Assembly: GCA_000002445.1 (NCBI GenBank)
Contig: CP000067.1
Coordinates: 800,001 to 864,000 of the forward strand
Origin: Trypanosoma brucei
Taxonomy: Eukaryota
Direction of reading: 5' to 3'
Length of the DNA stretch: 64,000 nt
This document shows, in pieces, positions 42,083-62,493 of the stretch; positions within the stretch are counted from its first letter, which is position 1, and each line of letters opens with the position of its first letter. The position numbers were made by a program, and so were the translations under genes. Below the pieces are notes generated by a model. It was not told where the DNA came from. It did not search any database and saw only the letters and a list, made by a program, of their open reading frames with translations.

Positions 42083-42803
42083 CAAAACCATGAAAAAAAG
42101 GACATATTGCACACATTTGTTTTCCCCTTATTTTCCTTCCTGTCACTGTTCCTTTCCCAGCCCAGTTCCAGTTTCCCATGACAGCACGGGTCCAATACCT
42201 TCCTCTTTTATAATGAACAATGGGGCATTTGATGGAATGTTTGCAGCAGCACCGCAACACCCCGCCACACATTGCAGCCTCGTGAGGTGATGTTTGAACT
42301 CTGTTGGTATGGGGGTCATCCTCTCCCTGCCTTTCTGGTATTTTAGCATTGCTTTCTCAACCAACCCAATAAAAGAAAAAGCAAAGCAAGGCAAAGAGCA
42401 AAAAGAGACGAGCCGTCCACTGACTCACGTTTTAGTTGATGGGGATGTTACTCTCGATGTAATGAATAATGGATATGCTGCTTCATTAGTAACTAAAACA
42501 GCGACCCCTTTTCCTTTCATTCGTTTCCGTCCCAAATGTCACCACCTCAGGCCACACACACACGCACAATCTCAATCCCTCTTCCCCTTTCATCCGAACA
42601 TTAAAATTTCACGGCAGCAAAATTGAGGGAAACGGAGAAATGACGAAAACCTACGCCGATCGGGACTCGAACCCGAGACCTTCGCCGTGTTAAAGCGACG
42701 TCATAACCACCTAGACCATCAGCGCTTGCCCGCTCCGGCAATTTTTGTATCATTTCCTCAGTTCAATTGATTTAAACACGAAAACGACTGACGGTGGTGG
42801 GGT
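42083..42803. repeat. left arm of a ~720-bp inverted repeat (≈98% identical to the right arm). It contains tRNA-Val and the 3' end of tRNA-Leu.
   Basis: Direct comparison with the reverse complement of 61012-61732. The ORF-track proteins 42294-42626(+) and 61186-61518(-) are identical. Only a few substitutions are visible, e.g. 'ataatgaacaatgggg' versus 'ataatgaccagtgggg'. Confidence 0.85.
42652..42725 (-). tRNA. tRNA-Val (anticodon AAC)
   Basis: Folded by hand. Acceptor is GCGCTGA/TCGGCGT, anticodon stem TCGCT/GGCGA with loop TTAACAC, T-arm TCGGG-TTCGAGT-CCCGA, and a T-run follows on the coding strand. It lies inside the left inverted-repeat arm. Confidence 0.8.
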
Positions 42804-42822
42804 TCGAACCCACGCCCCTAGA

Positions 42823-42861
<39 letters not shown>

Positions 42862-42868
42862 CACCGCC
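42789..42868 (-). tRNA. tRNA-Leu (anticodon TAG), long-variable-arm type
   Basis: Acceptor GGCGGTG/CACCGTC, D-arm GCCGAGTGGTCTAAGGC, anticodon loop TTTAGGC, variable arm TCTCTAGGGGC, T-arm GTGGG-TTCGAAC-CCCAC, and a T-run after the 3' end. Confidence 0.8.
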
Positions 42869-42926
42869 ACCACCGCCGGTTTCGCGGGCGAATTTCTGTT
42901 ATAAACTTACTCCCGCAGTAAAAATA

Positions 42927-42999
42927 TGCGATCGGTGAGGCTCGAACTCACGACCTTGGGATTATGAAACCCACGCGCTGCCGACTGCGCCACGCTCGC
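42927..42999 (-). tRNA. tRNA-Met (anticodon CAT), elongator type (G1:C72, T54)
   Basis: Acceptor GCGAGCG/CGATCGC (one mismatch), anticodon stem with GGG:CCC, loop TTCATAA, T-arm GTGAG-TTCGAGC-CTCAC. The sequence is identical to the plus-strand copy at 60774-60846. Confidence 0.75.
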
Positions 43000-45900
43000 A
43001 GCAGCTTCCGTCACATTTCGGATTGCCTTTTAACGGCTGGAAATCAGTTTCCAACCAGCAGGCTCATTCTGTAAATTCGCGCTGGGAAGCTTACATCCGC
43101 TTCTTCTATGCGAACACAACAATATACTTTCAAAATAACTACTCACTGTGAAAGTATCATATTTTACTGTTTTTATGTCGTCCCACTGAAGGAGTTTGGT
43201 GTATACATGAAGCATCCGCCGCAACGACAGCTGAAATAACACCTTTTCTCCACGCGAACGCCATTGAATATGGGTTGCCTAGAGGACTGGACGGAACAAC
43301 GGGAAGTACGTGTACACGGCGTCTGGAGCTCGTAAAAAATTAAATGGAATAGTTATACTTGTATTTATTTCAACGGTTAAGAAGATTGATCGTTATGGTA
43401 AAAGTATGGAAAGAAGTAAAAATAAGGTAGCGTTGAATGAGGAGTCGTGAAGGGGATGAAAATGAAAGAATGCTCCAACTCGCAGACTTTATTCTCACTA
43501 ACTAGATCCGCTTTACCGTATATTTCAATGTAGTATAAGAGTGTTATTCTTCCGCGAGGTGAGTGTGAGATTTGTAAAGGTGAGCATCCCCTCACGCTGT
43601 TGGTACAGAGCCATCGGTGTCGGAAGCGGCTGCTGCCATATATCCGCGGAATGTGAATGACCTCCAGGAAACAGTAGAAGCCACCAGAAAGGAAGTAAAG
43701 TGAGATTTTCCCATGATAATCCTAGAATCAACGCTAGCCCTTGGTTTCTCACAAGTTTGTATCTTTTTTTTTCCTTTATCGTCTTGTTACGTTTTGCAAT
43801 TCACCCTTTTTTTTCGAGCCTCTCCTTAAACTTTTTTTTCAAGAACCTTTCTCGTTTCTTATTTAAATAATTATTAGAGTTTATATCCTGGATACCTTCA
43901 TGAAGTTCTTTTGCGTCCCTTTTTGAAACCTATGTGCATGGCACCGTTGTAATGTTTCACAAATCCTGTTGCATTCCATGCGATTGAGATTCATATCTTC
44001 CCTGGAGGCGTCAGAAATTGCAGAGTAATGGTGAGTTGAGTTTACCGTTAGGGGGAGGCCAAATGACTGTTCGCACCCTGTCATCAGGGAGACATGGCAG
44101 CTCACCGGCTGTTGGTTGTTGGGGTAACGGGGGAAGTGGAAACGATATTGGCTCCCTGATGTGGGAACCGATATCTTTGTTGTCCCTTGCACGCTCTTGC
44201 ATGTTCCCGTGGGCGTGTAGGGACAACTCCTGTTGTGGAGAAGACATCAGAGGCAACTGTAATTCACCTACTGGCGTATGGTAAGGGACTGTCTCTTCAA
44301 ATTTTTTGGGGGGAAAAAGGAAGGCTTCTTTTGCGTTTTGAAGGGGACATACATCCACGCGACGAAGAAGTGAAATGCAAAATGATGCCTGTATTTCCGG
44401 AACATTGATATAGCAAACCCTTCTAGGGGTTGACGAGTGTCAAAATCGGCAGAAAATAGCACAGGTAGAATGCAAGGCTCGTAACAAAATGGAAACTGGA
44501 AGAGTGTCAGTTAAACCGAAACTCGCTCAGGAGTAGTGGAACACACTCGTGTCAATATTTTTCTGTGGCCAAATCTGGAATCACCTGACCACTACTGGAA
44601 GGTTGCATGGAAGAGATAGTTTGAAGGTTTGCAGAAAGGCAATGGAGTAGCAATTCGACGAAGGAGGAAACTTAAATACCCCACATATCACGCGGAATGC
44701 TGCCTTGGAATAGGATTCCGCAGAATATGAGGGATAAATGTTATTGCCGCCTGAAGGAATAATAGTCACTTATAGGGATAGGGGTTTACGATGGGAATTA
44801 GGCAGTTCCTTCAGCTGTTGGAAGTTTTGAAGCAAATAGACAAGACAGCAAAAACAATGAACTTCCTGAGGAATCAGAGCAGGCAATGCAAAAGGCACTG
44901 ACCGAAGCGCAGAGTAGAACACGATACAAATGTAGATGGTGCGATTATTAGCGTGTTCATGTGTCGGGGCCCATTCTGCACACAAGGAACAAACACTCGG
45001 TGGAAGTTGGAATGAAAAAAGATACAAATGATAAAGCATCTCCGGCATCAAAGACAGCTCCAAAGACCCTCCAACGCTCGCAGTACAAAATGCGTGCAAC
45101 AAAGTGACCTCACTGAACTCATGCAGCGGAAAGGCGAATGCAAAATAGGAAAAAAAGCACAACACTGTAAAAAGTGGGTACTACTCATCTTCCCTAAAAC
45201 CGTCACAACACCCCTCCCCAGGAAGCGCTGCGTAGAGAAAGCGGTCGAAAATGCGGCAAACAGATGGTTGCCGTTTCGCATGCAACTGGCACGTTTCCAT
45301 GCAAGCTATTTCAACCAAAGGATTTGGAGCTAAACACAGAGGAGCGTCAACAGACTCAAGATAACTGTCAAAGGAATTCACACTGAAACGACCATGGGTT
45401 GGTTCAACACAAAAAAACACGCTCTTAATTAACTCTATAAGATTCTTTCGCATTCCACAGTTTCTCACGTCTCCACTGACTTGTTTCCTCTCTACGAAAA
45501 AGCAGCTCTACTTGTTTGCTACACGTATCTAAAGGGATACTGACACTTTTTTGAAACGTGTTCATCGCCTCATATCGCTTATCTTCAGACTGTTCCCACA
45601 AAGGAGCTGAAGAGCTTAATAAAAATAATAAAAATATGTTCGCATTCATACCATCAAACCCCAATAACGGAAAACATTGAAGAAAAGAATTTCCCTGCAG
45701 TTACTGATATAACATGAAGACCAACAAAAGAACTTACTCAACACTCCATAGATGGTATGTAATTAACATGCACCCAGAAACATACGCAGCCGATAGATAA
45801 TAGAAGGATCGAAATAAGTCCTCAAAATATATGCGATACAGCCTCCACTTTTTTTTTGACCTTCGCCTACGCACAAACCGCTATAAAATTGCTATGTTCC

Positions 45901-47179
45901 TTTTGAGTCGACAATTATTTTGCGTTTCTGTCAGCGCATATATCGATCTTTTCAAAAACTTTCAAACAATGCGTACAATCCTCCCCACCTAGGCAATTGC
46001 AACCAAATTTTACCAACCACCTTTACCACATATTTTGCCGAGAAAATACCCCGTGATTTGATTTTTCGTTAAATTTTTCGCCATGGAAAAGTGCATTTGT
46101 TGCTTTTCTTCGCTTCATTAATTTTACCACTTACTCTAGTAGTGTGTTTCAGGACCTCCAATAATTTGCTGCTATCGTTTATTTTGTTGGAGAATTTCTC
46201 TTCGCTAGATAAAACTTTACTGAAGGTTTTGAACGTTGTCAGTAAATCTGGCTTCTGCGGTGCACAAGCGCCGTATATTTATTTTTTTCATAAGTGCGTG
46301 CCTCAGAAATAGCACTTCCCTGGCTCAGTAATGGGACAACCACGCCCCTGTTGACTTTATTTTGAAGCTTTCTCTTACTACATCTCGGAGTAAGTTTCTT
46401 TCCCTCATGAGCTCATAAATTTCCACCACTGGTTCTTTCTCTTTTCTAGAGATGTCATTTTCACACGTCAAACCAGCTGTGATGACCTCAGATGTTCTAT
46501 TTTTTATTTTCAGTGTGGTCCCAAGGTCTCTTTCATGTAGTGAAGTTCCGGAATTGGTCTTTTATGGCTTTCATCTGTCTTTGTTCACTTCTTTTTTCAC
46601 TTTGTTTCTGCGAGTCACATATTCCAACCGTTGTCACTATGTTTTGTTAGCTCCTTGGTAGTATGTCTGTTCTGACCCACAGTAATCTGGCACTTCTTTC
46701 TTTCCATCCGTTCCATAGTGTTCATATAACCTCACCTTCGTCGTCGCAGACAAAACCATCATTTGCTCTTGATCACCTTCTTTGTACACGTAACGTTCTA
46801 TTTTCTCCCCCTTGCCATACACACGCAAATACGCAAAAATGGAGAGAAAAGTATACATCCTTGCAACCTGAACTCCCTTGTTTACCTATAACTTCAACAT
46901 AGTTCGGTCTTTTCTCGATCCACTGTATCCCCTTCTGAAAAAAAGACAAAGCATATGAGCGTACATGCTTCGTATCAAACGAAAACTCAAACTGAAGCAC
47001 GTGTGTGACCATGCATGCTCTCGCGTGATATTTAGTATCGTATACCTGTGCTACTAAGAAAATATAAAGATGCGCGCAAAGAGGAAAGGGGGTGTCTATG
47101 ACAATAGTGGCTCTGAAGATGAAGCTTAAAAAGGGAAGTAACACAAACGAGTGGAAACTGTATTCACACATTCTTGATA

Positions 47180-48109
47180 TTATACTGAAGACGCCATAAG
47201 ACTACTGAAAAGGGAATGGAGTTTGTCAGAGAGGGTGTCAATTCTGGAAGCACGTTCCGACAGCTTAGAAAGCATGACTTCAATTTCTGAGGATACATCA
47301 TTTATTTCTTTGAGGTGAGGAAGAAAAGACTTGAAAACTCTTGTTACGTTCACATCTTCTACCAGGCCGTATCTATTCGCAAGGACCTTGTCCCTACCCA
47401 AATTACCCCTTATTCCCCTGTGTTTGAAGATGTGTCCATGGGAAGTGGACACCGAATCAACTCTGTCAGCCAGTTTTCTTCCTCCAGTGCTATACGCCGT
47501 TCCATTGTGAAACCTCAAGTCGACGTGCTCGTCCCTGCTGCTGTCAAATTCGGTAATTATATCAGAAACGTCCCTTCCAGTTAAGGTTCCATCACACGTG
47601 ACTTGTATCCCATTATTCCTACAAAAGCCATGTGAATTATTCAGCATGCGCACTGCCTCCGATCCAACTCTGTACATCTCCTCCATTGTGGCTGCATACC
47701 TGGTTCCGGTTCTTACAACATCCATTGCCTTTTCCTCCATATAAGAAACACTAAGATCGAATTTCTTCCGTAAGTAGCTTTCACCTTCGAAAACACTCTC
47801 CATCTCATTTAATATTTCCTTCATTTTATCACCCTTCTCTTTTTTCATAAATGGTTTTCCGCGTAGGAATAATTCTCTCCACGCTGCATTCTGTTCTTCT
47901 GCCGAATACCTCTTCTCATACACCTCCTCTGCATGTACTCTAGTTCTTAAAAGTAGATCCTCCGTCACATTAATCATCCAATTAAGCTTCTTCACGACAC
48001 AGTCAATTTGTTTAAGGGTTGAGAGTGCTTCTTTATCAGTCTCCTGCATTCGAGAATCCACCAAGACAACAGAAATTGCAGCAAACACTACCGGAACTAT
48101 CCTCACCAT
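47180..48109 (-). CDS. array unit 1, 'A'-type secreted protein: signal peptide, ~310 aa, several N-glycosylation sequons, no C-terminal hydrophobic/GPI-type tail. The ORF opens at 48187.
   Basis: Paralog of 49729-50658, 52260-53204 and 54814-55740. Shares 'IDCVVKKLNWMINVTEDLLLRTRVHAEEVYEKRYSAEE'. Confidence 0.7.
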   Translation of the reverse strand: MVRIVPVVFAAISVVLVDSRMQETDKEALSTLKQIDCVVKKLNWMINVTEDLLLRTRVHAEEVYEKRYSAEEQNAAWRELFLRGKPFMKKEKGDKMKEILNEMESVFEGESYLRKKFDLSVSYMEEKAMDVVRTGTRYAATMEEMYRVGSEAVRMLNNSHGFCRNNGIQVTCDGTLTGRDVSDIITEFDSSRDEHVDLRFHNGTAYSTGGRKLADRVDSVSTSHGHIFKHRGIRGNLGRDKVLANRYGLVEDVNVTRVFKSFLPHLKEINDVSSEIEVMLSKLSERASRIDTLSDKLHSLFSSLMASSV

Positions 48110-48254
48110 CCCAAGCACTTGTACCACGTAAAAGAGAACTACAGAAAAATACACGTTCTTTAAGAGAAGCACCACACACACACACACGCTAGTAGCGTGA
48201 AACTTACAATTGTAAAAATATTTTAGAAAATTACTAACATTTCCCCACCTATTT

Positions 48255-49373
48255 CTAAAACGGTACCAAGACGCACAAAAGCAACGCTACCCATGGTAGA
48301 GTTTGTTGAAACTTCACCACACCATTATTATCTTCACTATAATTATCATTCCATGGAGAATCCTTCGCGTTTCCTAATGTTTCCGTAAGTTCATTGGTCC
48401 TTTCCTTCATTTTAACAATACTTCTGACTTTTTCTTCAAGTTCCAGAAGCAACCTATCGAGTACAGCTCGTTGAGCTGTGATGGAGGTGTTTCCTGCAGA
48501 TATCTTTATGACGCTGGCACTCAGCAGATCGATTAGTTCCTGAAATTCTTCTCCAATAGAACTGAAGTTTGCCATAAGTCTGTCATTCTGTGTGTAAAAG
48601 AGGCCACCAGAAAGTTCATTGATAAAGGGCTTCTTCCCTTTTGTGTACGGCTGGTATGTCGTCGTGATATAGCATCCATAAACAGCATCGGCACCTTGAT
48701 CTCCTGCATTTCCCATAGTCAAACTGAGTTCTGTATTAAGAGGATTTTCATACTCAGCAAGGCCACCCTCGCTGTGCTGTGGTGGCTCAACTGTGCAGTC
48801 TCTGGGAACACTGCCGCGTTTACCACCTCTTATGCAATCGCCAGTTGCCCCTCCATCCACCACAAGACAGCAATTTCCATATCCTAGTGCTGCATGGTGG
48901 AAAACTTCCACCATATCCTTAATCCAGTACGCGTACGAGTCAGACATATTCAGAAGGTTCCACGATGGCAACCTCATAGCCCGCAGTGAAGTATTCATGT
49001 TTTTAATGCTTTTTTTTAACTCCAATAGTGACTCTTCCGTTTCAATCAACAACTTTGCCACCTCATTCACTCTTTTACCTCCATCTGGAATTACTTCTTT
49101 CAGAACATCCACTAAAATTGTTTTTGTTCGAACACGTGCACTGTAGTGAGCTACAATTTTTTCACAGTCTTCCACTATTTTCTCCCCGAATTTCATATTA
49201 TGTGTCACATTGTTCCTCAGTTCCCTCAGCTTCCTAACTATACTACAGATGGCATTTGCATCACTTTGTGTCAGTGCCTTGCCCTTACCCTTTTCATCAC
49301 CCTCCGGTCCACTGTTAGCACATGCCACCACCAGAAAACTAAACATAATCACCACTCCTCCAACTGAAATCAT
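48255..49373 (-). CDS. array unit 1, 'B'-type surface glycoprotein: signal peptide 'MISVGGVVIMFSFLVVACA', ~375 aa, C-terminal hydrophobic GPI-type tail 'WVALLLCVLVPF'. The ORF opens at 49439.
   Basis: Paralog of the B copies at 50780, 53338 and 55871. Cys pairs such as 'CCLVVDGGATGDC' and many NxS/T sequons. Confidence 0.7.
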   Translation of the reverse strand: MISVGGVVIMFSFLVVACANSGPEGDEKGKGKALTQSDANAICSIVRKLRELRNNVTHNMKFGEKIVEDCEKIVAHYSARVRTKTILVDVLKEVIPDGGKRVNEVAKLLIETEESLLELKKSIKNMNTSLRAMRLPSWNLLNMSDSYAYWIKDMVEVFHHAALGYGNCCLVVDGGATGDCIRGGKRGSVPRDCTVEPPQHSEGGLAEYENPLNTELSLTMGNAGDQGADAVYGCYITTTYQPYTKGKKPFINELSGGLFYTQNDRLMANFSSIGEEFQELIDLLSASVIKISAGNTSITAQRAVLDRLLLELEEKVRSIVKMKERTNELTETLGNAKDSPWNDNYSEDNNGVVKFQQTLPWVALLLCVLVPF

Positions 49374-49728
49374 ATTATCACCTTCATACACAAAACAAGC
49401 AAAAAGGAGCTTTGAAAGCATGTGCTTCTTATTCCCCATATCATACTGTTATTCAAGTAAAGACAAATCTTCGCTGACACATTATCAAGGCACCCAAAAA
49501 CATGATATCGCAATGCGACCACACGTAGTCGGCCAGAAGCAGCAATAGCATATAAACACACATTCATATTTGCACATGCACATTCATTTCATGGTTATTG
49601 GACGGTTATTTTATGGTTATTTGCAAGAGGAGGGTGCAGTGAGAGTGTTAATACTGCTGACAGTTGTTGAGGCACAGGGTGTAAAAAGAGAAGGTGAGCG
49701 AAAGAGGCGTGTGTTCTCTTTTTCATTT

Positions 49729-50658
49729 TTAAGCTGTGGATATGGTGATGCTGCTGAAGATTGACTGGAGTTCCTTTTCGAGAGCGTCGATTCTGGAAGT
49801 TTGTTCCAACAGCTTGGAAGGCGTGGCTTCAATTTCGGAGATGATGTCGTTGATTTCTCTTAGAGGTGTGACAAACAACTTGAGAAGCTCTGATGCATTC
49901 ACCTTTTCTACCGAGCGAAGTTTATTCGTTTGGACGTTGTCTTTACCCAAATTGTTCCTTATTCCTCTGTGCTTGAGGACGAGCCCAAGGGAGGTGGACG
50001 CCGTATTGACTTTATCGGCCAATTTGTTTCCCCCATGGCTCTGAAACCCTCCACCGGTAAATGACAAGTCCATATAATCAGCGTCGCTGTCGAAATCGCC
50101 AACAATACCGGAAATATCTTTCCCAACAAAAGTTGTCCCGCACTTGACGTATGCACCATTATCCCCACAATAGCCATGCGACTTATTTACAATACATACT
50201 GCCTCTAATCCAACTCTGTACATCTCCACCATTGTGGCTGCATACCTGGTTCCGGTTCTTACAACATCCATCACCTTTTCCTCCAGATAAGAAACATTAA
50301 GGTTAAATTTCTTCCGTAAGTAGCTTTCACCTTCGAAAACACTCTCCATCTCATTTAATATTTCCTTCATTTTATCACCCTTCTGTTTTTTCATAAATGG
50401 TTTTACGTACACGAATAATCGTTCCCAGGCTGCGTATCTTTCCTCCGCCGAATACCTCTTCTCATACACCTCCTCTGCATGCACTCTAGTTCTTAAAAGT
50501 AGATCCTCCGTCACATTAATCATCCAATTAAGTTTCTTCACGACACAGTCAATTTGGTTAAGAGTTGTCAGTGACTCGTCGTTGTCCGCTTCTGGTGACA
50601 TGTTCTCTGCCAACACAACCCAAACTACAAAAAGCATCACTAGAAGTATCCTTATCAT
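49729..50658 (-). CDS. array unit 2, 'A'-type secreted protein (no GPI-type tail)
   Basis: Paralog of the A family. Signal peptide 'ILLVMLFVVWVVLA'. Confidence 0.7.
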   Translation of the reverse strand: MIRILLVMLFVVWVVLAENMSPEADNDESLTTLNQIDCVVKKLNWMINVTEDLLLRTRVHAEEVYEKRYSAEERYAAWERLFVYVKPFMKKQKGDKMKEILNEMESVFEGESYLRKKFNLNVSYLEEKVMDVVRTGTRYAATMVEMYRVGLEAVCIVNKSHGYCGDNGAYVKCGTTFVGKDISGIVGDFDSDADYMDLSFTGGGFQSHGGNKLADKVNTASTSLGLVLKHRGIRNNLGKDNVQTNKLRSVEKVNASELLKLFVTPLREINDIISEIEATPSKLLEQTSRIDALEKELQSIFSSITISTA

Positions 50659-50779
50659 CCTATAAACTTATTCCACACAAAATCGAACTACAGAAAATAA
50701 TGCCCCTTTCCGGAAAGAGACCACACCGCTAGTAACATGAAGCTGTTATTAAAAATATTTTATAAAATTACTCACTTTC

Positions 50780-51904: not shown

Positions 51905-52259
51905 ATTATCACCTTCATACACAAAACAAGCAAAAAGGAGCTTTGAAAGCATGTGCTTCTTATTCCCCATATCATACTGTTATTCAAGTAAAGACAAATC
52001 TTCGCTGACACATTATCAAGGCACCCAAAAACATGATATCGCAATGCGACCACACGTAGTCGGCCAGAAGCAGCAATAGCATATAAACACACATTCATAT
52101 TTGCACATGCATATTCATTTCGTGGTTATTGGACGGTTATTTTATGGTTATTTGCAAGAGGAGGGTGCAGTGAAAGTGTTAATACTGCTGACAGTTGTTG
52201 AGGCACAGGGTGTAAAAAGAGAAGGTGAGCGAAAGAGGCGTGTGTTCTCTTTTTCATTT

Positions 52260-53204: not shown

Positions 53205-53337
53205 TCCACACTCTTACTTCAGGAAAAACTAAGCCAGTTCGAAGAGCGTACCTTTTTTGGAAGGGCACATCGCTTACACGCTAGTAGTAATAAGCTGTCA
53301 ATTGCACAAATATTTTAGAAAATTACACACTTTCCAC

Positions 53338-54459
53338 CTATTTCCAAAATACAGAAAAGACGAAAAGAAGCAGAGCCACTTCTGATAGATTTGGTTTCTT
53401 GCTCATACCATCACTCTCATAACTCTCATTATCATACCAGGAAACATCTTCTATGCTTCCTAATCTTTTCGTAACATCCATGACTCTCTTTTTCCTTTTA
53501 AGGATATCTCCAACTTCTTCCTCAAACCTCAGTAACAAGCTGTGGAGTATAGTTCGTTGACCTGTGATAGATGTGTTCCACGTGAAAATGTCGCTGATAC
53601 TAGTGTTCAGTTGATCGATTAGTTCCTGAAATTCTTTTCCAACAGAACTGAAGTTGGCAACGACGTTGTTATTCTGTGTGTAAAAGAGTCCTCCTGAAAG
53701 TTCATTTATAAAGGATTTCTTTGTATTAAAGCCACCTGCGGTGCTTGTGATGTAGCAACCGTAACTATTTGGGGTTTTACCGTAGTTTCCTGAATTTCCC
53801 ATAGTCAAACTGAGTTCTGTATTAAGAGGATTTTCATACTCAGCAAGGCTACCCTCGCTGTGCTGTGGTGGCTCAACTATGCAGTCTCTGGGAACTATTC
53901 CTCGTTTTCGGTCAAAGGGACAATCTTCCATTGACCCTCCATCTACCACAAGACAGCAACTCCCGGGGCTAAACGCTGCATAGTGAAAAAAATCCACCAT
54001 ATCCTTAATCCAGTACGCATATGAGTCCGATATATTTACAAGGTTCCACGATGGCAACCTCATAGCCCGCAGTGAAGCATTCATGCTCGTAATTGTCTTC
54101 CCTAATCCATCCCTCAGTTCCCCCATCTTCTCCAGGATTCTTTCCATCCCACTGAAACTTGACTTTTCTTCTGCCATTACTTTCTCCAACACGCTCACCA
54201 GCATTTTCTTAGACATAACTTTCGCGCCGTAGTAACTTTTCACGTCTTCAGCCTCGTCCACTATTTTCTCCCCGAATTTCATATTATGTGTCACATTGTT
54301 CCTCAGCTCCCTCAGCTTCCTAACTATACTACAGATGGCATTTGCATCACTTTGTGTCAGTGCCTTGCCCTTACCCTTTTCATCACCCTCCGGTCCACTG
54401 TTAGCACATGCCACCACCAGAAAACTAAACATAATCACCACTCCTCCAACTGAAATCAT
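53338..54459 (-). CDS. array unit 3, 'B'-type GPI-type surface glycoprotein. The ORF opens at 54525.
   Basis: Paralog of the B family. C-terminal tail 'VALLLFVFSVFW'. Confidence 0.7.
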   Translation of the reverse strand: MISVGGVVIMFSFLVVACANSGPEGDEKGKGKALTQSDANAICSIVRKLRELRNNVTHNMKFGEKIVDEAEDVKSYYGAKVMSKKMLVSVLEKVMAEEKSSFSGMERILEKMGELRDGLGKTITSMNASLRAMRLPSWNLVNISDSYAYWIKDMVDFFHYAAFSPGSCCLVVDGGSMEDCPFDRKRGIVPRDCIVEPPQHSEGSLAEYENPLNTELSLTMGNSGNYGKTPNSYGCYITSTAGGFNTKKSFINELSGGLFYTQNNNVVANFSSVGKEFQELIDQLNTSISDIFTWNTSITGQRTILHSLLLRFEEEVGDILKRKKRVMDVTKRLGSIEDVSWYDNESYESDGMSKKPNLSEVALLLFVFSVFWK

Positions 54460-54813
54460 ATTATCACCTTCATACACAAAACAAGCAAAAAGGAGCTTTG
54501 AAAGCATGTGCTTCTTATTCCCCATATCATACTGTTATTCAAGTAAAGACAAATCTTCGCTGACACATTATCAAGGCACCCAAAAACATGATATCGCAAT
54601 GCGACCACACGTAGTCGGCCAGAAGCAGCAATAGCATATAAACACACATTCATATTTGCACATGCATATTCATTTCATGGTTATTGGACGGTTATTTTAT
54701 GGTTATTTGCAAGAGGAGGGTGCAGTGAAAGTGTTAATACTGCTGATGCTTGTAATTAACATTGGCTCAAAAGGAATTATGTTCACGCATTTTTTTTATT
54801 ATACTGAAGACGC

Positions 54814-55740
54814 TCAAAGGCTGTTAAAGAGGGATTCAAGTTTCTTTTCGAGAATAGAAAACTTGTGAACACGTTCCGACAGCTTGGAAGGTGTGGCTTC
54901 AACTTCGGAGGTGAGATTACCGACTTCCCTTAGATGTGTGACAAACAACTTGAGAAGCTTCGCTGCACTCACGTGTTCTACCAAGTCGCGTTCATCCATG
55001 AGAACTCTGGCCTTTCCCAAACTATTACCTATTCCTCTGTGCTTGATGACACGTCCAAACGTGGTCGATACATTATGAACTCTATCAGCCAGCTTGTTTC
55101 CCCCTTTACTCCAGTGACCTCCGTTCTCAAACCTTAGATCTATATTTTCTTCAGTGCCGCTACCAAATTCAGCAACGATAATAGATAAATTTCCCCCAGA
55201 GAAGGCTCTCTCGCATGTAACATTGGCTTCATAAATTTCACAACTTTTTGGTACTTCTTTTCCAGAACGCACAGCTTCCAATCCAACTCTGTACATCTCC
55301 TCCATTGTGGCTGAATACCTGATACCGACTCTTACAATAGTCATCATTTTTTTTTCAAAGTAAGAAACATTAAGGTTAAAGTTTTTCTGCAAGTAGCTTT
55401 CAGTTTCAACGATTCTCTCCATCTCATTTAATATTTCCTTCATTTTATCACCCTTCTGTTTTTTCATAAATGGTTTTACGTACACGAATAATCGTTCCCA
55501 GGCTGCGTATCTTTCCTCCAGCAAATACTTCTTTTTATATACCTTTTCTGCATGCACTCTAGCTCTTAAAAGTAGATCCTCCGTCACATTAATCATCCAA
55601 TTAAGCTTCTTCACGACACAGTCAATTTGCTTAAGAGTTGAGAGAGATTCATCTCCGTGTGTTGTTTCCGCTATAACCCCCCAAAAAACAACTAGAACAA
55701 CTAAAGTGACAGCAAACACCACCTGAATCATCCTCATCAT
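54814..55740 (-). CDS. array unit 4, 'A'-type secreted protein
   Basis: Paralog of the A family. Shares 'ERYAAWERLFVYVKPFMKKQKGDKMKEILNEME' with A2. Confidence 0.7.
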   Translation of the reverse strand: MMRMIQVVFAVTLVVLVVFWGVIAETTHGDESLSTLKQIDCVVKKLNWMINVTEDLLLRARVHAEKVYKKKYLLEERYAAWERLFVYVKPFMKKQKGDKMKEILNEMERIVETESYLQKNFNLNVSYFEKKMMTIVRVGIRYSATMEEMYRVGLEAVRSGKEVPKSCEIYEANVTCERAFSGGNLSIIVAEFGSGTEENIDLRFENGGHWSKGGNKLADRVHNVSTTFGRVIKHRGIGNSLGKARVLMDERDLVEHVSAAKLLKLFVTHLREVGNLTSEVEATPSKLSERVHKFSILEKKLESLFNSL

Positions 55741-55870
55741 ATGTACCTATTCCACGAAAAGCGAATCACAGGAAAACGTGTAGCCTTTAGTAAGGGTACA
55801 ACACACGCGGTAGTAGAACATAATTGTCGTCTGTATAAATATTTTAGATCACTTACTTCTCCACATACTT

Positions 55871-56980
55871 TTAGAAGAATACCAGGAAGAATAGAAACAG
55901 ACTCACCCCTCGGAGGGTTGGTTGCGTCCCCATACCATCGCTATTCCCACTCTCGTTACCAAACCATGGAATGTTCTTCGTGCTACCTAATGCTTCCGTA
56001 ATTGCTTTGTTCTTTTCTTTCTCAAGGACATGTCTGATTTCTTTCTTCAGCTTAAGTAGCAAACCATCGAGTACAGCTCGTTGTCTTGTAATTGATGTGT
56101 TCCACGCGGAAAAATTGTTTGTGACTCTTCTTAGCGGATCGATTAGCTCCTGAAATTCCTTTCCAACAAAAGTGAAGTTGGCCATAAGTCTGTTATTCTG
56201 TGTGTAAAAGAGGCCACCAGAAAGTTCATAAATGAGAGATTTTTTCCCCCTGCTGTAAGTGTCATTTGTTGTTGTGATGAAGCAGCCACATAGCGGGTAT
56301 TCGCCTTCGTCCCCTGCATTTCCCATCGTTAAAGTGAGTCCTTCATCAAGAGGGTTTTTGTACTCAGCAAGGCCACCCTCGCTGCGCTGTGGCGGGTAAA
56401 TAGTGCAATCCGTGGGGACACTGCCGCGTTTACCACCTCTTATGCAATCTCCCGTTGCCCCTCCATCCACCACAAGACAACAATTCCCGCTTCCGAATGC
56501 TGTCTGGGCAAAGAGTTCTACCATATCTTTCACCCAGTACGCATACGAGTCAGACATATTTGTGAGGTTCCACATTTGCACACTCATGCACCCGAGTGAA
56601 GCGTTCACATTCGTAATACTTCTTTTCAACACCTGGATCGGCTCCTCCATATCACTCAGCAGCTTTCCCATCACGCTCAACTTTTCTCCTTCTTCAGGAA
56701 TTAGTTTTCCCAAAACCTTCACTAACATTTTCTTTGCTTCAACACGTGTGCTGTAGTAAGTAGCAACGTTTTCGCCATTGTCCACGATTTTTTCACCCAA
56801 TTTCATATTACGCGTCACGTTATTTGCCAACTCCCTCAACTGTTTGACCACATTGCAAATGGCATCTGCATCACTTTGCGTCAGCGCCTTGCCCTTACCC
56901 TCGATGTCACCCTCCGCTTGACCGTAAGCACATACCACCACTAAACAAGCCACAACCATTCCCCTTTTGAGTGGCATCAT
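55871..56980 (-). CDS. array unit 4, 'B'-type GPI-type surface glycoprotein, the most diverged B copy. The ORF opens at 57019.
   Basis: Signal peptide 'MMPLKRGMVVACLVVVCAYGQA' and C-terminal tail 'LRGVSLFLFFLVFF'. Confidence 0.7.
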   Translation of the reverse strand: MMPLKRGMVVACLVVVCAYGQAEGDIEGKGKALTQSDADAICNVVKQLRELANNVTRNMKLGEKIVDNGENVATYYSTRVEAKKMLVKVLGKLIPEEGEKLSVMGKLLSDMEEPIQVLKRSITNVNASLGCMSVQMWNLTNMSDSYAYWVKDMVELFAQTAFGSGNCCLVVDGGATGDCIRGGKRGSVPTDCTIYPPQRSEGGLAEYKNPLDEGLTLTMGNAGDEGEYPLCGCFITTTNDTYSRGKKSLIYELSGGLFYTQNNRLMANFTFVGKEFQELIDPLRRVTNNFSAWNTSITRQRAVLDGLLLKLKKEIRHVLEKEKNKAITEALGSTKNIPWFGNESGNSDGMGTQPTLRGVSLFLFFLVFF

Positions 56981-57092
56981 ATTATCCCCTCCTTCCAGAA
57001 ACGCAAGAAAGGCAAACAAATTGTGGATCCCTACGTGCGTATTCAGTCGGAGAACAGATCTTGATTACAATAAGTAGAACATTTGGGCTATA

Positions 57093-58325
57093 TTACGAAA
57101 ACACCAACAAAACAAAAATGCTCACCATTAAATCGAAATGGGCATCACCCTCCGTGTCAACATCCAAATTTTCTGCCTTGCCCCAGATATCTATGTTTCC
57201 TCCAAGTTTGTACTCAAGAAACATTTCCTCAGCGTCATGCTGTAAATCTTCCAACTCGTAAATATGGGAGTTTGCTTCACTTTCATACTTCTCCATGTCT
57301 TCCATGTTCTTTGTGGCATTGGTGAGACGATTGTGCCACGGTATGCCGCCATGGGATAAGGTGTGTTTGTAATTCACACACGTTGTTCCGGGTCTGTGGC
57401 CATCACATAGAAATGTTTCATTACTCGTATCATTCACGTGGCCAAATACGCCTTCCACCTGAAACTTGTCCTGCCTCATGTTAACAGATTTATCAAACTC
57501 CTCCAATGCAGCCTTTAACAGCTTTGAGTTGGATGCAATGTGCCTGTACACGCATCCGCGCTTTACCACTTGCCAAGCATCTTTGAGTGTCATTGATGAA
57601 TTAACCTCACATTTCTCTTCGGCCAAGGCGCACTCATTGCTCATGCCCGTCCACTTATTTTTTTCTGGTCGCCTCAAGTAGGTCCTGCAGGGCGAACTAT
57701 GCCCGTTGTAATAGTAGCTGCTGCTGTTCGCCTCGTCTTTCGCCTCTCCCACACATACACAAAAAAAGTCGTTAACAAGTGTTTTTCCAGTTTCATTACC
57801 GTTGCTTCCACAGCTTTCCAGAGCAGATTCATTGCTGTTGAACAGTAAACTTTTATTAGTTTCCATAATATCGTCAATGGGTCTGTTGGTCTTATGTGCC
57901 TCATCCACTAAATCACCATACACAGCTTTCATCATGCTCTCCTCAGCCTTACTGCTCTCCCGCATCGCCCTCTTTCTATTCCTGTCAATCTCTCCCTTCA
58001 CCGCTTTTGCTCTTTTGTATAGTTTCTCAATCCCTTCACGCGCCTTTTGGCTCACAGAAGTTTCTTTTCCGTTCGCTCTCGCCTCACTCACCATTACCTC
58101 GAACCTCTTCATAATCTCATCTTCCTTCTCACGGTTTCTAAATTCCGGCCTTGGCACCTTTGCTTGAGTGATCCTGTAAATCTTACAAAGGATCTCAAAC
58201 TCTCCGGTGTTGTGTTGGTAATCAGTAATGTTGAAAACACCCTTCTGTTGACCCTGACTTCCTCTTATTGATCCCCATAAAAGAGCAACCAACAATAGCA
58301 CCCCAGCGCAACCACGTCTCTTCAT
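57093..58325 (-). CDS. VSG-like / ESAG-like GPI-type surface glycoprotein (410 aa) with a signal peptide and C-terminal hydrophobic tail. Contains the motif 'NDFFCVCVGE'.
   Basis: N-terminal 'GVLLLVALLWGSIRG', C-terminal 'LMVSIFVLLVFS', a Cys-rich central region, and many sequons. Confidence 0.65.
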   Translation of the reverse strand: MKRRGCAGVLLLVALLWGSIRGSQGQQKGVFNITDYQHNTGEFEILCKIYRITQAKVPRPEFRNREKEDEIMKRFEVMVSEARANGKETSVSQKAREGIEKLYKRAKAVKGEIDRNRKRAMRESSKAEESMMKAVYGDLVDEAHKTNRPIDDIMETNKSLLFNSNESALESCGSNGNETGKTLVNDFFCVCVGEAKDEANSSSYYYNGHSSPCRTYLRRPEKNKWTGMSNECALAEEKCEVNSSMTLKDAWQVVKRGCVYRHIASNSKLLKAALEEFDKSVNMRQDKFQVEGVFGHVNDTSNETFLCDGHRPGTTCVNYKHTLSHGGIPWHNRLTNATKNMEDMEKYESEANSHIYELEDLQHDAEEMFLEYKLGGNIDIWGKAENLDVDTEGDAHFDLMVSIFVLLVFS

Positions 58326-58435: not shown

Positions 58436-59716
58436 TTAAGCGACAAAGGCAGTCAGCGCCATCATTGCTAAAACAGTCAAAGATATTGAAAAGCCGGCCC
58501 CATCCTCTTCCACCTCGTTCACTTCACTCTCCATCATTAAGTGTTCCAAATTCAAGTTAATCTTTGCTGCTGCACTTTTCATATTCTCCGCTAATTTCCA
58601 CAGCCTTCCAAGCAAAACCTTTGCCTCCTTATTGTGCCTTTCCATTTCCACCAGGTACTTCTCCGCATCCAGCAACCTCAGCTGCCACTCAATTCCCTTC
58701 TGCGTCAGAAGTCTATACGCATAATTCACGCACATTTGGTCATTCTTCCCCGTGCATATGTTTTCGCTGCGGTCAAAAACACCCGTATGTATTTTTTTTG
58801 CTCTCCCAAACACGTAGGTCCGAAATCCCTCCGATTCTTTCATGTTCATGATTATATTCTCCCTCTGCCTTCCAAGAAGCTTATTGAACTCCCTCACTGC
58901 ATCTTGGATTTTTTCTGGCGTTATCAATTTCAAATTTTCATTTTTTGGACAGGCTTCATCCTTTATCTTAAACCAGCCGGGGCCAAAAGCCACATCACTT
59001 CCATCATACGACACATTTTTCCACAGTTTCTTTCTACCCGGCCCCTTGATACTTTTGTGACAAACGGTCTCATTATTCTCTTCTCCAACGCACAAGCAAA
59101 AAAAGTCCCCCACGAGCGAACGCCCAGCCATGGCATCCTCAGTCGAGGGATGATACCCAGCTCCGCACGTTTCCTCTGCGGAGTTTCCTATTAAAGTGTC
59201 TCCGGTGTGCACCGCAAACTTTTCAAACTCCTCCTTCTCCATCAGCCTCCCAGCATTCGCCCCATAAACGACTTGCGCCATTCTTTCGAGTGCAAATTTC
59301 CTTGACACATTCGCCAGGCGCCGTTCCTCTCTTATTCCACTCACGAGTATGGTTGCCTTTTCCGCTAGTTTTATTAACTTCTCATGTGTTACCCTCCACC
59401 GAATAATATCATTTGCACGATGCATACTCATCTTAGCGGCCCCACTATTGTTAACTGTTCCTTTCCTCCTTTCCATAGCTTCTTTATACAAGGAATCCTT
59501 CACGTATGTCGCTTTCACAAACATCTGTAGCCTGTCGATGATACTCGTTAGATTCGCAGGCTCTTCCATTATTTTCTCTGGTTCCCCCTCCGCCAACCTC
59601 AATATCTCACACATTTGGTTGAACTCTTTTTCATTCACTAACTTTGAATCCTCTCCACACACCAAGTGGAAGGCACCAAAGGCCGTTAACAAGAATGTCA
59701 CTATGATTTCCTTCAT
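58436..59716 (-). CDS. second VSG-like GPI-type surface glycoprotein (about 426 aa from the 'MKEIIVTFLLTAFGAF' start). Contains 'GDFFCLCVGE'. The ORF opens at 59767.
   Basis: Signal peptide and C-terminal 'ISLTVLAMMALTAFVA'. Shares a Cys motif with the neighbouring gene. Confidence 0.65.
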   Translation of the reverse strand: MKEIIVTFLLTAFGAFHLVCGEDSKLVNEKEFNQMCEILRLAEGEPEKIMEEPANLTSIIDRLQMFVKATYVKDSLYKEAMERRKGTVNNSGAAKMSMHRANDIIRWRVTHEKLIKLAEKATILVSGIREERRLANVSRKFALERMAQVVYGANAGRLMEKEEFEKFAVHTGDTLIGNSAEETCGAGYHPSTEDAMAGRSLVGDFFCLCVGEENNETVCHKSIKGPGRKKLWKNVSYDGSDVAFGPGWFKIKDEACPKNENLKLITPEKIQDAVREFNKLLGRQRENIIMNMKESEGFRTYVFGRAKKIHTGVFDRSENICTGKNDQMCVNYAYRLLTQKGIEWQLRLLDAEKYLVEMERHNKEAKVLLGRLWKLAENMKSAAAKINLNLEHLMMESEVNEVEEDGAGFSISLTVLAMMALTAFVA

Positions 59717-60614: not shown

Positions 60615-60686
60615 TTCCGGTGCCGGGGATCGAACCCGGGTCTAGCGGGTGAGAGCCGCTTGTTCTAGCCACTATACCACACCGGA
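60615..60686 (-). tRNA. tRNA-Glu (anticodon CTC)
   Basis: Acceptor TCCGGTG/CACCGGA, anticodon stem AGCGG/CCGCT with loop CTCTCAC, T-arm CCGGG-TTCGATC-CCCGG, and T7 after the 3' end. Confidence 0.8.
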
Positions 60687-60773: not shown

Positions 60774-60846
60774 GCGAGCGTGGCGCAGTCGGCAGCGCGT
60801 GGGTTTCATAATCCCAAGGTCGTGAGTTCGAGCCTCACCGATCGCA
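60774..60846 (+). tRNA. tRNA-Met (anticodon CAT), elongator type, arranged divergently to tRNA-Glu
   Basis: Same 73-nt sequence as 42927-42999 on the opposite strand. Followed by a T6 terminator. Confidence 0.75.
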
Positions 60847-60889
60847 CTTTTTTGATTTCCACCTGCGAGTTTTTCAGCAGGAGAAAACC

Positions 60890-60970
60890 CGTCGACAGCA
60901 GGGTTCGAACCTGCGCGCGAGATCGCATTTGATTTCAAGTCAAACCCCGTAACCACTTGGGTATGTCGAC
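60890..60970 (-). tRNA. tRNA-Ser (anticodon TGA), long variable arm
   Basis: Perfect 7-bp acceptor GTCGACA/TGTCGAC, discriminator G, anticodon stem TTTGA/TCAAA with loop CTTGAAA, 13-nt variable arm, T-arm GCAGG-TTCGAAC-CCTGC. Confidence 0.75.
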
Positions 60971-61011
60971 AACGGTTTACCCGACTATTTCAAACTAATA
61001 AAAAAACAGAT

Positions 61012-61025
61012 CCACCACCGTCAGT
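61012..61025 (+). pseudogene. 3'-terminal ~14 nt fragment of tRNA-Leu(TAG) (acceptor 3' strand plus part of the T-stem). It sits at the inner boundary of the right inverted-repeat arm.
   Basis: 'CCACCACCGTCAG' matches the 3' end of the intact tRNA-Leu at 42789-42868. The homology then stops. Confidence 0.55.
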
Positions 61026-61086
61026 CGTTTTCGTGTTTAAATCAATTGAACTGAGGAAATGATACAAAAATTGCCGGAGCGGGCAA

Positions 61087-61160
61087 GCGCTGATGGTCTA
61101 GGTGGTTATGACGTCGCTTTAACACGGCGAAGGTCTCGGGTTCGAGTCCCGATCGGCGTA
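61087..61160 (+). tRNA. tRNA-Val (anticodon AAC), the copy in the right inverted-repeat arm
   Basis: Identical to the reverse complement of 42652-42725 and followed by TTTT. Confidence 0.8.
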
Positions 61161-62493
61161 GGTTTTCGTCATTTCTCCGTTTCCCTCAATTTTGCTGCCG
61201 TGAAATTTTAATGTTCGGATGAAAGGGGAAGAGGGATTGAGATTGTGCGTGTGTGTGTGGCCTGAGGTGGTGACATTTGGGACGGAAACGAATGAAAGGA
61301 AAAGGGGTCGCTGTTTTAGTTACTAATGAAGCAGCATATCCATTATTCATTACATCGAGAGTAACATCCCCATCAACTAAAACGTGAGTCAGTGGACGGC
61401 TCGTCTCTTTTTGCTCTTTGCCTTGCTTTGCTTTTTCTTTTATTGGGTTGGTTGAGAAAGCAATGCTAAAATACCAGAAAGGCAGGGAGAGGATGACCCC
61501 CATACCAACAGAGTTCAAACATCACCTCACGAGGCTGCAATGTGTGGCGGGGTGTTGCGGTGCTGCTGCAAACATTCCATCAAATGCCCCACTGGTCATT
61601 ATAAAAGAGGAAGGTATTGGACCCGTGCTGTCATGGGAAACTGGAACTGGGCTGGGAAAGGAACAGTGACAGGAGGAAAAATAAGGGAAAACAAATGTGT
61701 GCAATATGTCCTTTTTTTTCATGGTTTTGGAGAAGAAGAGTGTTTGTGATAATACTGGAACCGTTGCACCACACCAAAGGGACACCGGCAGCAATATTAC
61801 ATGCTACGAAGGCTTTGCACACGCCTTGCGCTGTTCTAAACGCTACGCGCGCCCTTGACTTCAGGGAAGGGAATGGAAGGGGAAAATGAAGAAACGATCT
61901 TCCCAAAGTCAATTAAGCGTTACGCCCTCGGTCGCATCCATGAGCCTTTCACTCCAATTGCCAACAACAACGGCTAACAACATCCTCATTACGACATTGT
62001 ATTGCTTTGCCTTTTAGGGGAGAGAGTTGATTTTCTTCCCGCGTGCGCGAATAATGCACATCCGCGCGGAGGCATCTTTACCGTTCCAAAAGCAAAAAAA
62101 AAAGATGAGTAAAAGAGGAGACGAAAAGAATAGAAGCAGAAAAGTGAAGTTGGGGTGTGAAAAGGTGCTATGAACAAACTTCATCCACTTCAGCTGGCGC
62201 AGCGTGAAAAAATTTACATTCACCCCACGTGACTTCTCACTTTCTGTTGGCCAAATTATTGCATCCGGTTAGAAAGAAACCAGGTGTATCGCACACACGC
62301 GCTCGCACAAGAAACACGCAATCACCAACACGCGGCTACGCACACGTCACTCACGAAGAGAGCATCAGCTATTCAAAAAAAAAATAATAATAACAATAAT
62401 AATTAAATGGAGGATACGAACTTGAAGTCCACCGCCAGATCCCATCCTTTTAGTACCCAACCACACACACGGATTCACAAGCACACACTCTCC

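What the first reader, a model, noticed from the sequence alone, without database searches (positions are those of the whole stretch)
42083..61732. A 720-bp inverted repeat carrying tRNA-Val brackets the entire 18-kb surface-gene cassette, a possible invertible segment at a transcription-unit boundary
The two arms (≈42083-42803 and ≈61012-61732) are about 98% identical in inverted orientation. The spacer (42804-61011) contains three left-hand tRNAs, 4 kb of non-coding DNA, all ten surface-protein genes, and three right-hand tRNAs. Homologous recombination between such arms would flip the cassette. In the present orientation the array is the distal part of the minus-strand unit coming in from the right (FtsH-like gene → tRNAs → array), ending in the convergent switch region. 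After inversion it would instead sit at the very end of the plus-strand unit, right after the UBC gene. The cassette is therefore positioned so that a single recombination event would change which converging transcription unit reads it, or whether it is read antisense. I do not know of such an arrangement being described for a chromosome-internal surface-gene family.
Basis: seen in the sequence. Interest (0 to 1): 0.75.

Follow-up and report, generated by a model that had tools for sequence, protein, structure and literature searches.

The report
Inverted repeat flanking trypanosome gene island
Two near-identical 721-bp copies of a stretch carrying the tRNA-Val gene lie in opposite orientation on either side of an 18-kb, strain-variable surface-gene island on Trypanosoma brucei chromosome 4. 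They demonstrably exchange sequence with each other, but nothing indicates that they work as a regulated flip switch.

Summary
The window is T. brucei TREU927 chromosome 4, 800,001-864,000. Arms 42080-42800 and 61012-61732 are inverted copies (716/720 identical, two 1-nt indels), 18,211 bp apart. Each carries one of the genome's only two tRNA-Val(AAC) genes. They bracket Tb927.4.3200-.3290: four two-gene units plus two VSG_B-domain genes.

Outgroups show one ancestral six-tRNA cluster in the convergent region between the UBC and FtsH-like genes. In T. brucei the island split that cluster, and Val plus about 640 bp was duplicated in inverted orientation.

The repeat is present, in the same orientation, in DAL972 and IVM-t1. 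Arms are 98.1-99.9% identical within a genome but only 95.4-97.1% between strains. In an otherwise almost identical 10-kb haplotype, the right arm alone is a 4% divergence patch. The arms therefore undergo ongoing gene conversion.

No inverted orientation was seen. The only hint is a caveated remark on T. evansi STIB805 (Carnes 2015). The locus is mirror-symmetric, so a flip would keep the array co-directional with the adjacent unit and should change little.

Verdict: a genuine recombining inverted duplication, possibly an occasional structural polymorphism, not a demonstrated switch. Modest interest.

The parts
40584..41246 (+). Ubiquitin-conjugating enzyme E2 gene (Tb927.4.3190), the last gene of the plus-strand polycistronic unit
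   Evidence: Pfam UQ_con. Exact 220-aa protein P0012 from TREU927. Gene ID from Carnes 2015 supplement. All large ORFs in 1-42000 are on the plus strand.
42080..42800 (.). Left arm of the inverted repeat: about 570 bp of non-coding DNA, tRNA-Val, a 62-bp spacer, and the last 12 nt plus T-run flank of tRNA-Leu
42652..42725 (-). tRNA-Val(AAC), copy 1 of the only two in the genome
   Evidence: ARAGORN, Rfam. Padilla-Mejia 2009 lists only Tb_04_tRNA_Val_1 and _2.
42788..42869 (-). tRNA-Leu(TAG). Its 3' 12 nt form the inner end of the left arm.
42926..43000 (-). tRNA-Met(CAT), the left copy. It forms an 80-nt inverted pair with the right copy.
   Evidence: (I2)
43001..47179 (.). 4.18 kb without a recognisable gene, containing the point where the converging units meet. 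43020-44836 is conserved at about 93% in DAL972 and IVM-t1.
   Evidence: No similarity to the rest of the window or to the array proteins. No Pfam hit above threshold. GC skew changes sign near 45000. Collinearity with the other strains.
47180..57019 (-). Tandem array Tb927.4.3200-.3270: four units of about 2.54 kb, each with a ~310-aa gene and a ~395-aa 'ESAG11-related' gene
   Evidence: Direct-repeat families with 2524-2555 bp spacing. ORFs. Homologues named ESAG11-related. Gene IDs.
57093..58325 (-). ESAG2-related gene with a VSG_B domain (Tb927.4.3280)
   Evidence: Pfam VSG_B, E=5.8e-27. Names. Gene ID.
58436..59716 (-). Gene with a VSG_B domain, predicted GPI-anchored (Tb927.4.3290)
   Evidence: Pfam VSG_B, E=4.5e-36. 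426-aa orthologues. GPI prediction in Savage 2012. C-terminal hydrophobic tail.
60615..60686 (-). tRNA-Glu(CTC)
60774..60847 (+). tRNA-Met(CAT), the right copy
60889..60971 (-). tRNA-Ser(TGA)
61012..61732 (.). Right arm of the inverted repeat. Its inner 12 nt (61012-61023, CCACCACCGTCA) are a truncated 3' fragment of tRNA-Leu.
61087..61160 (+). tRNA-Val(AAC), copy 2. This is the ancestral position, next to the FtsH-like gene.
   Evidence: The same Val-FtsH adjacency is seen in T. theileri and T. vivax; T. cruzi has Val at the same distal end of the cluster, but its FtsH is not in the locus read.
62494..64000 (-). 3' part of the mitochondrial FtsH-like metallopeptidase gene (Tb927.4.3300), the last conserved gene of the minus-strand unit
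   Evidence: Pfam AAA and Peptidase_M41. Orthologues. Gene ID.

Best explanation
The feature is a genuine inverted duplication specific to the T. brucei lineage. It is 721 bp long and comprises tRNA-Val(AAC) with about 640 bp of flank.

[quoted passage not shown] The two copies are kept almost identical by recurrent intrachromosomal gene conversion. That step is shown by the comparisons.

As a by-product the arms are a substrate for homologous crossover, which would invert the 18.2-kb segment. This is inferred. Such inversions probably arise now and then as near-neutral structural variants.

They are not a programmed expression switch. The locus is mirror-symmetric, so either orientation leaves the array co-directional with the adjoining Pol II unit, behind the same arm and the same three tRNA genes.

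The likely selected features are the second tRNA-Val gene copy and the tRNA clusters as Pol II termination or boundary elements on both sides of the island. This is inference from established knowledge of trypanosomatid strand-switch regions.
For: Arms:
- 716/720 identical in TREU927.
- The same repeat is present, in the same orientation and in gap-free sequence, in T. b. gambiense DAL972 and T. b. equiperdum IVM-t1.
- A short-read T. equiperdum OVI contig stops inside the arm, as expected for a true repeat.

Concerted evolution:
- Within-genome identity is 99.4%, 98.1% and 99.9%, against 95.4-97.1% between strains. Neighbouring intergenic DNA is 88-98% identical between strains, and genes are about 99.4%.
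- In DAL972 versus IVM-t1, the right arm holds 29 differences within a 10-kb stretch that otherwise has 0-8 per 250 bp.

Ancestral state:
- T. theileri and T. cruzi have a single cluster after UBC: Leu, Ser, Met, Glu, Met, Val. In T. theileri it is followed directly by FtsH.
- T. vivax has FtsH-Val-Ser, as in the present T. brucei right junction.

Other points:
- The genome has only two tRNA-Val(AAC) genes, and both are in the arms.
- No recombinase domain is present.
- tRNA genes at convergent regions are associated with Pol II termination (Padilla-Mejia 2009).
- The array lacks Pol II start-site chromatin marks and gives only modest expression signals (Jensen 2009).
- T. brucei carries other long inverted repeats of about 99-100% identity (Tschudi 2012).
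Against: Only three contiguous assemblies could be compared. Two of them had their chromosomes built with TREU927 as reference: DAL972 (my recollection of its publication, not verified here) and IVM-t1. Their sequence across the locus is gap-free.

Carnes 2015 reports a possible inversion in a T. evansi de novo contig, so orientation may vary.

No read-level or expression data could be examined, so a functional effect of orientation is argued against only from anatomy.

The origin of the arm is not fully resolved. Its inner end carries a tRNA-Leu 3' fragment that is ancestral to the left side, while Val is ancestral to the right side.
Confidence: 0.65

Rival explanations
1. This is a regulated or frequently used invertible switch. 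Recombination between the arms flips the island, so that a different converging polycistronic unit drives or silences the surface genes.
For: The arms recombine. The island sits exactly at a convergent boundary. T. evansi STIB805 may carry an inversion here. Small inversions between inverted tRNA-Met genes have happened in this cluster: Glu is on the plus strand in T. cruzi and the minus strand in T. theileri.
Against: The orientation is the same in TREU927, DAL972 and IVM-t1. T. equiperdum OVI shows only the inner side of the right junction, in the same arrangement. The present right junction (FtsH-Val-Ser) is already found in T. vivax. No recombinase is present. Because of the mirror symmetry, the 2.3 kb upstream of the first island gene is identical in both orientations, and the array is never placed antisense to its adjoining unit. 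tRNA clusters separate the island from both units in either state.
Confidence: 0.07
2. This is an assembly artefact: one arm is a misplaced or collapsed copy in the reference.
For: The repeat is about one Sanger read long. Carnes 2015 warned of assembly problems caused by the flanking tRNA genes. The OVI contig breaks in the arm.
Against: Both arms have distinct unique flanks and lie in gap-free sequence in three separately sequenced genomes. The arms differ at 1-14 positions within each genome, so they were resolved separately. Both tRNA-Val genes are annotated.
Confidence: 0.02
3. The duplication is retained mainly for function. It supplies a second tRNA-Val(AAC) gene for dosage, and it gives a pair of tDNA clusters that insulate the island from read-through on both sides. 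Arm identity is then incidental.
For: These are the only two Val(AAC) genes. T. cruzi has one per haplotype at this locus. tRNA genes lie in about 35% of convergent regions and coincide with Pol II termination. The island shows only modest expression signals and lacks start-site marks.
Against: Selection on a 74-nt gene does not explain 570 bp of near-identical non-coding flank. Gene conversion does. Boundary activity and histone or base-J marks were not testable here.
Confidence: 0.2
4. This is an siRNA-producing long inverted repeat of the kind catalogued by Tschudi et al. 2012.
For: The arms are near-identical like the seven listed repeats, and the repeat lies in a convergent region, another siRNA source.
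Against: It is not in their table, which has none on chromosome 4. The spacer is 18.2 kb. Read-through from the two converging units yields the same-sense copy of the arm, not complementary strands. This last point follows from the geometry.
Confidence: 0.05

Closest known systems
Long near-identical inverted repeats of the T. brucei genome (IR1-IR7; Tschudi et al. 2012, PMC3447711)
   Same: Same organism. Arms of hundreds of bp to kb at 99-100% identity, remarked on as surprisingly well conserved.
   Different: This repeat is not in that catalogue. Its spacer is much longer (18.2 kb), it carries a tRNA gene, and it brackets a gene island. siRNA production is untested and geometrically unlikely.
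Inversions by non-allelic homologous recombination between inverted low-copy repeats, such as plastid inverted-repeat flip-flop and the human Xq28 FLNA-EMD inversion (own knowledge)
   Same: Long inverted arms homogenised by gene conversion. Crossover inverts the intervening segment without any dedicated enzyme.
   Different: The two orientations have not been demonstrated here. The arms are short (0.72 kb) relative to the spacer.
Site-specific invertible switches, such as Hin, Gin, FimB/E and yeast 2-micron FLP (own knowledge)
   Same: A segment bounded by inverted repeats whose orientation could affect expression.
   Different: No recombinase gene. The arms are long generic homology rather than short recombination sites. 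No promoter logic depends on orientation.
tRNA genes at convergent strand-switch regions acting as Pol II termination regions in trypanosomatids (L. major chromosome 3; Padilla-Mejia et al. 2009, PMC2695483)
   Same: tRNA clusters lie between converging polycistronic units. The ancestral six-tRNA cluster is conserved in T. cruzi and T. theileri.
   Different: Here the cluster is split in two by an 18-kb island, and one tRNA gene is duplicated in inverted orientation.
Lineage-specific surface-gene insertions at strand-switch regions and synteny breaks in trypanosomatids (own knowledge of the TriTryp comparisons; Jackson 2010, PMC2854126, for T. brucei)
   Same: African-trypanosome-specific, fast-evolving predicted surface genes at a strand-switch region. 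T. cruzi has GP63 and retroelement fragments at the same position.
   Different: The island is framed by a recombining inverted repeat, which is not a general feature of such insertions.

Membership tests
Homologous-recombination (NAHR-type) invertible segment between long inverted repeats | Inverted arms long and similar enough for homologous recombination | tested here: met
   721-bp arms, 716/720 identical
Homologous-recombination (NAHR-type) invertible segment between long inverted repeats | Evidence of sequence exchange between the arms (concerted evolution) | tested here: met
   Within-genome identity is 98.1-99.9% against 95.4-97.1% between strains. The right arm is an isolated divergence patch between DAL972 and IVM-t1.
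Homologous-recombination (NAHR-type) invertible segment between long inverted repeats | Both orientations of the spacer observed in nature | tested here: inconclusive
   Three contiguous assemblies share one orientation. The only contrary hint is a caveated T. evansi contig. No reads were available.
Site-specific DNA inversion switch | A dedicated recombinase encoded in or beside the segment | tested here: not met
   Pfam scans of the ORFs in 35-64 kb found UQ_con, VSG_B, AAA/M41 and lipase-type α/β-hydrolase matches, plus one sub-threshold hit (DUF5560, E=0.0076), and no recombinase.
Site-specific DNA inversion switch | Orientation-dependent coupling of a promoter to the genes | tested here: not met
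   The anatomy is mirror-symmetric. The sequence upstream of the first island gene, out to the outer end of the arm, is the same in both orientations. Trypanosome promoters could not be scanned.
T. brucei siRNA-producing long inverted repeats (Tschudi 2012) | Near-identical arms | tested here: met
T. brucei siRNA-producing long inverted repeats (Tschudi 2012) | 22-25-nt Dicer-dependent small RNAs mapping to the arms | not testable with these tools
   No small-RNA data were available. The locus is absent from their Table 3.
tRNA cluster at a convergent strand-switch region (Pol II termination region) | Pol III genes located between converging Pol II units, conserved in position | tested here: met
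   Plus-strand unit up to UBC, minus-strand FtsH unit, tRNAs in between. The same cluster sits at the same place in T. theileri, T. cruzi and T. vivax.
tRNA cluster at a convergent strand-switch region (Pol II termination region) | Termination chromatin marks (H3.V, H4.V, base J) and a drop in Pol II transcripts | not testable with these tools
   Only the statement by Jensen 2009 that the island lacks start-site marks.

The most novel reading that the evidence does not exclude
The 18.2-kb island is a recurrent inversion polymorphism in natural T. brucei-group populations. It would flip through crossover between the tRNA-Val arms, as hinted by the T. evansi STIB805 contig. Orientation would then decide which converging unit's read-through feeds Tb927.4.3200-.3290. 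That would make it a recombination-based, heritable on/off or dosage variant for a chromosome-internal surface-gene family.
Probability: 0.08. Interest if true: 0.6.

Novelty: new member of a known kind. Interest (0 to 1): 0.3.

Why it matters
The locus shows how a conserved tRNA cluster at a transcription-termination region became the landing site and frame for a rapidly diversifying surface-gene island.

It also gives clean sequence evidence that inverted repeats 18 kb apart in T. brucei undergo frequent gene conversion.

It flags a place where reference-guided assemblies may hide an inversion polymorphism.

It matters practically because the repeat holds both copies of an essential tRNA gene, and because it complicates assembly and read mapping of Tb927.4.3200-.3290.

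It does not at present reveal a new regulatory mechanism.

Tried and rejected
- **Assembly artefact:** rejected. Both arms are present with unique flanks in three genomes, without gaps.
- **Transposon or retroelement origin of the arms or the 4-kb gap:** no reverse-transcriptase or transposase domain, no similarity to the array, no tandem repeats.
- **Larger segmental duplication, suggested by a second UBC paralogue (167 aa):** only 478 nt of coding sequence is shared (97.7%). That copy lies about 40 kb away in an unrelated context, so it is unrelated to the arms.
- **Homology of the 570-bp non-tRNA part of the arm to outgroup spacers**, to decide which arm is the original: only the tRNA genes align.
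- **Staggered-break single-event model for inversion plus flanking duplications:** it predicts the order Leu-Val on the left, but Val-Leu is observed (reasoning).
- **Bacterial promoter and terminator scan:** not applicable to a trypanosome, and the counts were near shuffle expectation.
- **Exact-protein look-ups** for the TREU927 167-aa UBC and the 426-aa Tb927.4.3290: nothing on record.
- **T. congolense orthologue of FtsH:** it has no contig in the collection, so the closest outgroup could not be examined.
- **Literature searches** for further mentions of these gene IDs or of long-read inversions at this locus: nothing beyond Jensen 2009, Jackson 2010, Savage 2012 and Carnes 2015.
Full report
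**Identity of the window**

The 394-aa array protein is 100% identical to a TREU927 protein on a 1,590,432-bp record. Carnes et al. 2015 place Tb927.4.3200 at Tb927_04_v4:847180-848109(-), which matches the ORF ending at window 47180. The window is therefore T. brucei brucei TREU927 chromosome 4, about 800,001-864,000.

Gene assignments:
- UBC is Tb927.4.3190.
- The array is Tb927.4.3200-.3270.
- The ESAG2-related gene is .3280.
- The VSG_B-domain, predicted GPI-anchored gene is .3290.
- The FtsH-like peptidase is .3300.

**The observation**

The repeat finder reports an inverted pair of 680 nt at 99%, a 45-nt extension, and a separate 80-nt pair formed by two tRNA-Met genes. Alignment and direct reading put the arms at 42080-42800 and 61012-61732. 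They share 716 of 720 aligned positions, with two single-base indels.

ARAGORN and Rfam agree on seven tRNA genes:
- Left: Val(AAC)-, Leu(TAG)-, Met-.
- Right: Glu(CTC)-, Met+, Ser(TGA)-, Val(AAC)+.

The Val genes are inside the arms. The inner 12 nt of each arm are the 3' acceptor end of tRNA-Leu, preceded by its T-run flank. Only the left side has the rest of the Leu gene.

The spacer holds:
- 4.18 kb with no recognisable gene;
- four ~2.54-kb two-gene units;
- two VSG_B-domain genes.

All ten ORFs have N-terminal hydrophobic segments. Six have tails like a GPI signal.

**Is it real, and is it conserved?**

I retrieved the locus from three other genomes:
- T. b. gambiense DAL972 (L004, L006);
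- T. b. equiperdum IVM-t1 (L001, L003, L005);
- T. equiperdum OVI (L002).

DAL972 and IVM-t1 contain both arms in gap-free sequence. They are collinear with TREU927 from UBC to FtsH. The short-read OVI contig begins inside the right arm, as expected for a true repeat.

IVM-t1 chromosomes were ordered on TREU927, but the locus lies inside continuous sequence. An artefact is therefore excluded. The orientation is the same in every assembly I could read.

**The arms recombine**

Within a genome the arms are 99.4% (TREU927), 98.1% (DAL972) and 99.9% (IVM-t1) identical. Any arm of one strain is only 95.4-97.1% identical to any arm of another. Many variable sites are shared by both arms of a strain and differ between strains.

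Adjacent intergenic DNA differs between strains by 2-12%, and genes by about 0.6%. The arms therefore diverge between strains like their surroundings, yet stay matched within each genome.

The clearest evidence comes from DAL972 versus IVM-t1. Their right-hand 10 kb is nearly identical, with 0-8 differences per 250 bp. The right arm is the exception, with 29 differences clustered in L006 5701-6039. Their left-hand parts are about 6% diverged. The right arm has evidently been overwritten from each strain's own left arm. This is direct evidence of gene conversion between copies 18 kb apart.

**Origin**

In T. theileri, UBC(+) is followed by one cluster, Leu- Ser+ Met- Glu- Met+ Val+, and then FtsH(-). 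T. cruzi has the same cluster with Glu+, followed by retroelement fragments and GP63 genes. T. vivax has FtsH, Val, Ser in the T. brucei arrangement before its contig ends.

The simplest history has three steps. This is inference.
1. An inversion of the Ser-Met-Glu-Met block occurred in the salivarian ancestor.
2. The island was inserted between Met and Glu. Tb927.4.3290 is reported as shared with T. congolense.
3. Val plus its flank was duplicated in inverted orientation to the UBC side of Leu.

The present orientation is collinear with that ancestor, so no arm-mediated flip needs to be invoked.

One point remains unexplained. The arm is chimeric. Val is ancestral to the right side, whereas the Leu 3' end, whose flank is conserved with T. 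cruzi, is ancestral to the left. There are two possibilities: conversion tracts spilled over the original boundary, or a right-hand Leu copy was later truncated.

The Glu gene lies in opposite orientation in T. cruzi and T. theileri, between inverted Met genes. Repeat-mediated inversion has therefore occurred in this cluster on a small scale.

**Function**

Padilla-Mejia et al. 2009 list only two tRNA-Val(AAC) genes in T. brucei, both on chromosome 4. The arms therefore hold the whole gene complement for this tRNA. The same paper summarises evidence that tRNA genes in convergent regions coincide with Pol II termination.

Jensen et al. 2009 noted that this array lies between RNA-gene clusters, lacks start-site chromatin marks, and gives only modest signals. 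The array is thus better described as an island insulated by tRNA clusters on both sides than as the distal part of the FtsH unit.

The layout is mirror-symmetric: unit, 0.8 kb, arm with Val, tRNAs, island. A flip would therefore put the array behind the UBC unit in sense orientation, with an identical 2.3 kb upstream. The predicted regulatory consequence is small. No recombinase is encoded nearby.

**What is already known**

- Carnes et al. 2015 (S7 Fig) describe the 4x repeat and its loss or disruption in T. evansi STIB805. [quoted passage not shown]
- Jackson et al. 2010 list the Tb927.4.3220 array among variable tandem arrays.
- Tschudi et al. 2012 surveyed TREU927 for long inverted repeats. 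They found seven, all 99-100% identical and none on chromosome 4.

The 721-bp repeat itself, its tRNA-Val content and its concerted evolution therefore appear not to have been described explicitly. The kind of feature, and the suspicion of an inversion here, are not new.

**Verdict**

However, no second orientation was seen, and the anatomy argues against a regulatory switch.

I rate this a new member of a known kind, with modest interest (0.3). The decisive test is counting arm-spanning long reads of each junction type across strains and clones.

Noticed in passing
window 44836-54872, compared with L006 and L003/L005: The array units are only about 68-73% identical in DNA between TREU927 and DAL972 or IVM-t1, while flanking genes are about 99.4% identical. 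Copy number also differs: four units in TREU927 and two in DAL972. This points to deeply diverged haplotypes or very fast evolution of the island.
   Followed up: partly
L006 versus IVM-t1 (L003 + L005): DAL972 and IVM-t1 share an almost identical right half of the locus (99.4% over 14.8 kb, from the array to FtsH). Their left half is about 6% diverged (UBC 3' region, left arm, the 4-kb gap). This indicates a recombinant haplotype with a breakpoint inside the array.
   Followed up: partly
window 47180-48187, 49729-50658, 52260-53204, 54814-55740: The ~310-aa ORFs keep full-length reading frames in DAL972 at only 59-67% amino-acid identity. They are therefore probably real, fast-evolving genes rather than 3' UTRs of their neighbours, as Jensen 2009 had suggested. 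They have a signal-peptide-like N-terminus but no GPI-like tail.
   Followed up: partly
L012 and L013 (T. cruzi), about 12200-20678: At the same convergent region after the same tRNA cluster, T. cruzi carries a reverse-transcriptase fragment and GP63 (Peptidase_M8) genes instead of FtsH. The site seems to be a recurrent landing place for lineage-specific surface genes.
   Followed up: no
L011 12056-12127 versus L012 11672-11743: tRNA-Glu lies on opposite strands in T. theileri and T. cruzi, between the same pair of inverted tRNA-Met genes. This is consistent with a small inversion mediated by the ~73-nt Met repeats.
   Followed up: no
window 40612-41089, compared with L007 10002-10479: A second UBC gene (167 aa) lies about 40 kb further along, in the minus-strand unit. 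It shares 478 nt of coding sequence at 97.7% with Tb927.4.3190, but not its flanks. This suggests a recent partial duplication or gene conversion between paralogues.
   Followed up: partly
window 4730-12413, 33000-35000 and 37000-40000: These are long stretches with low G+C (0.39-0.43) and no ORF of 250 aa or more, inside the plus-strand unit. I did not examine them.
   Followed up: no
L014 13692-13894 (T. vivax) and L002 1-663 (T. equiperdum OVI): Both draft contigs end inside or just after this tRNA cluster or arm. The locus evidently breaks short-read assemblies, which makes published orientation calls here unreliable.
   Followed up: no
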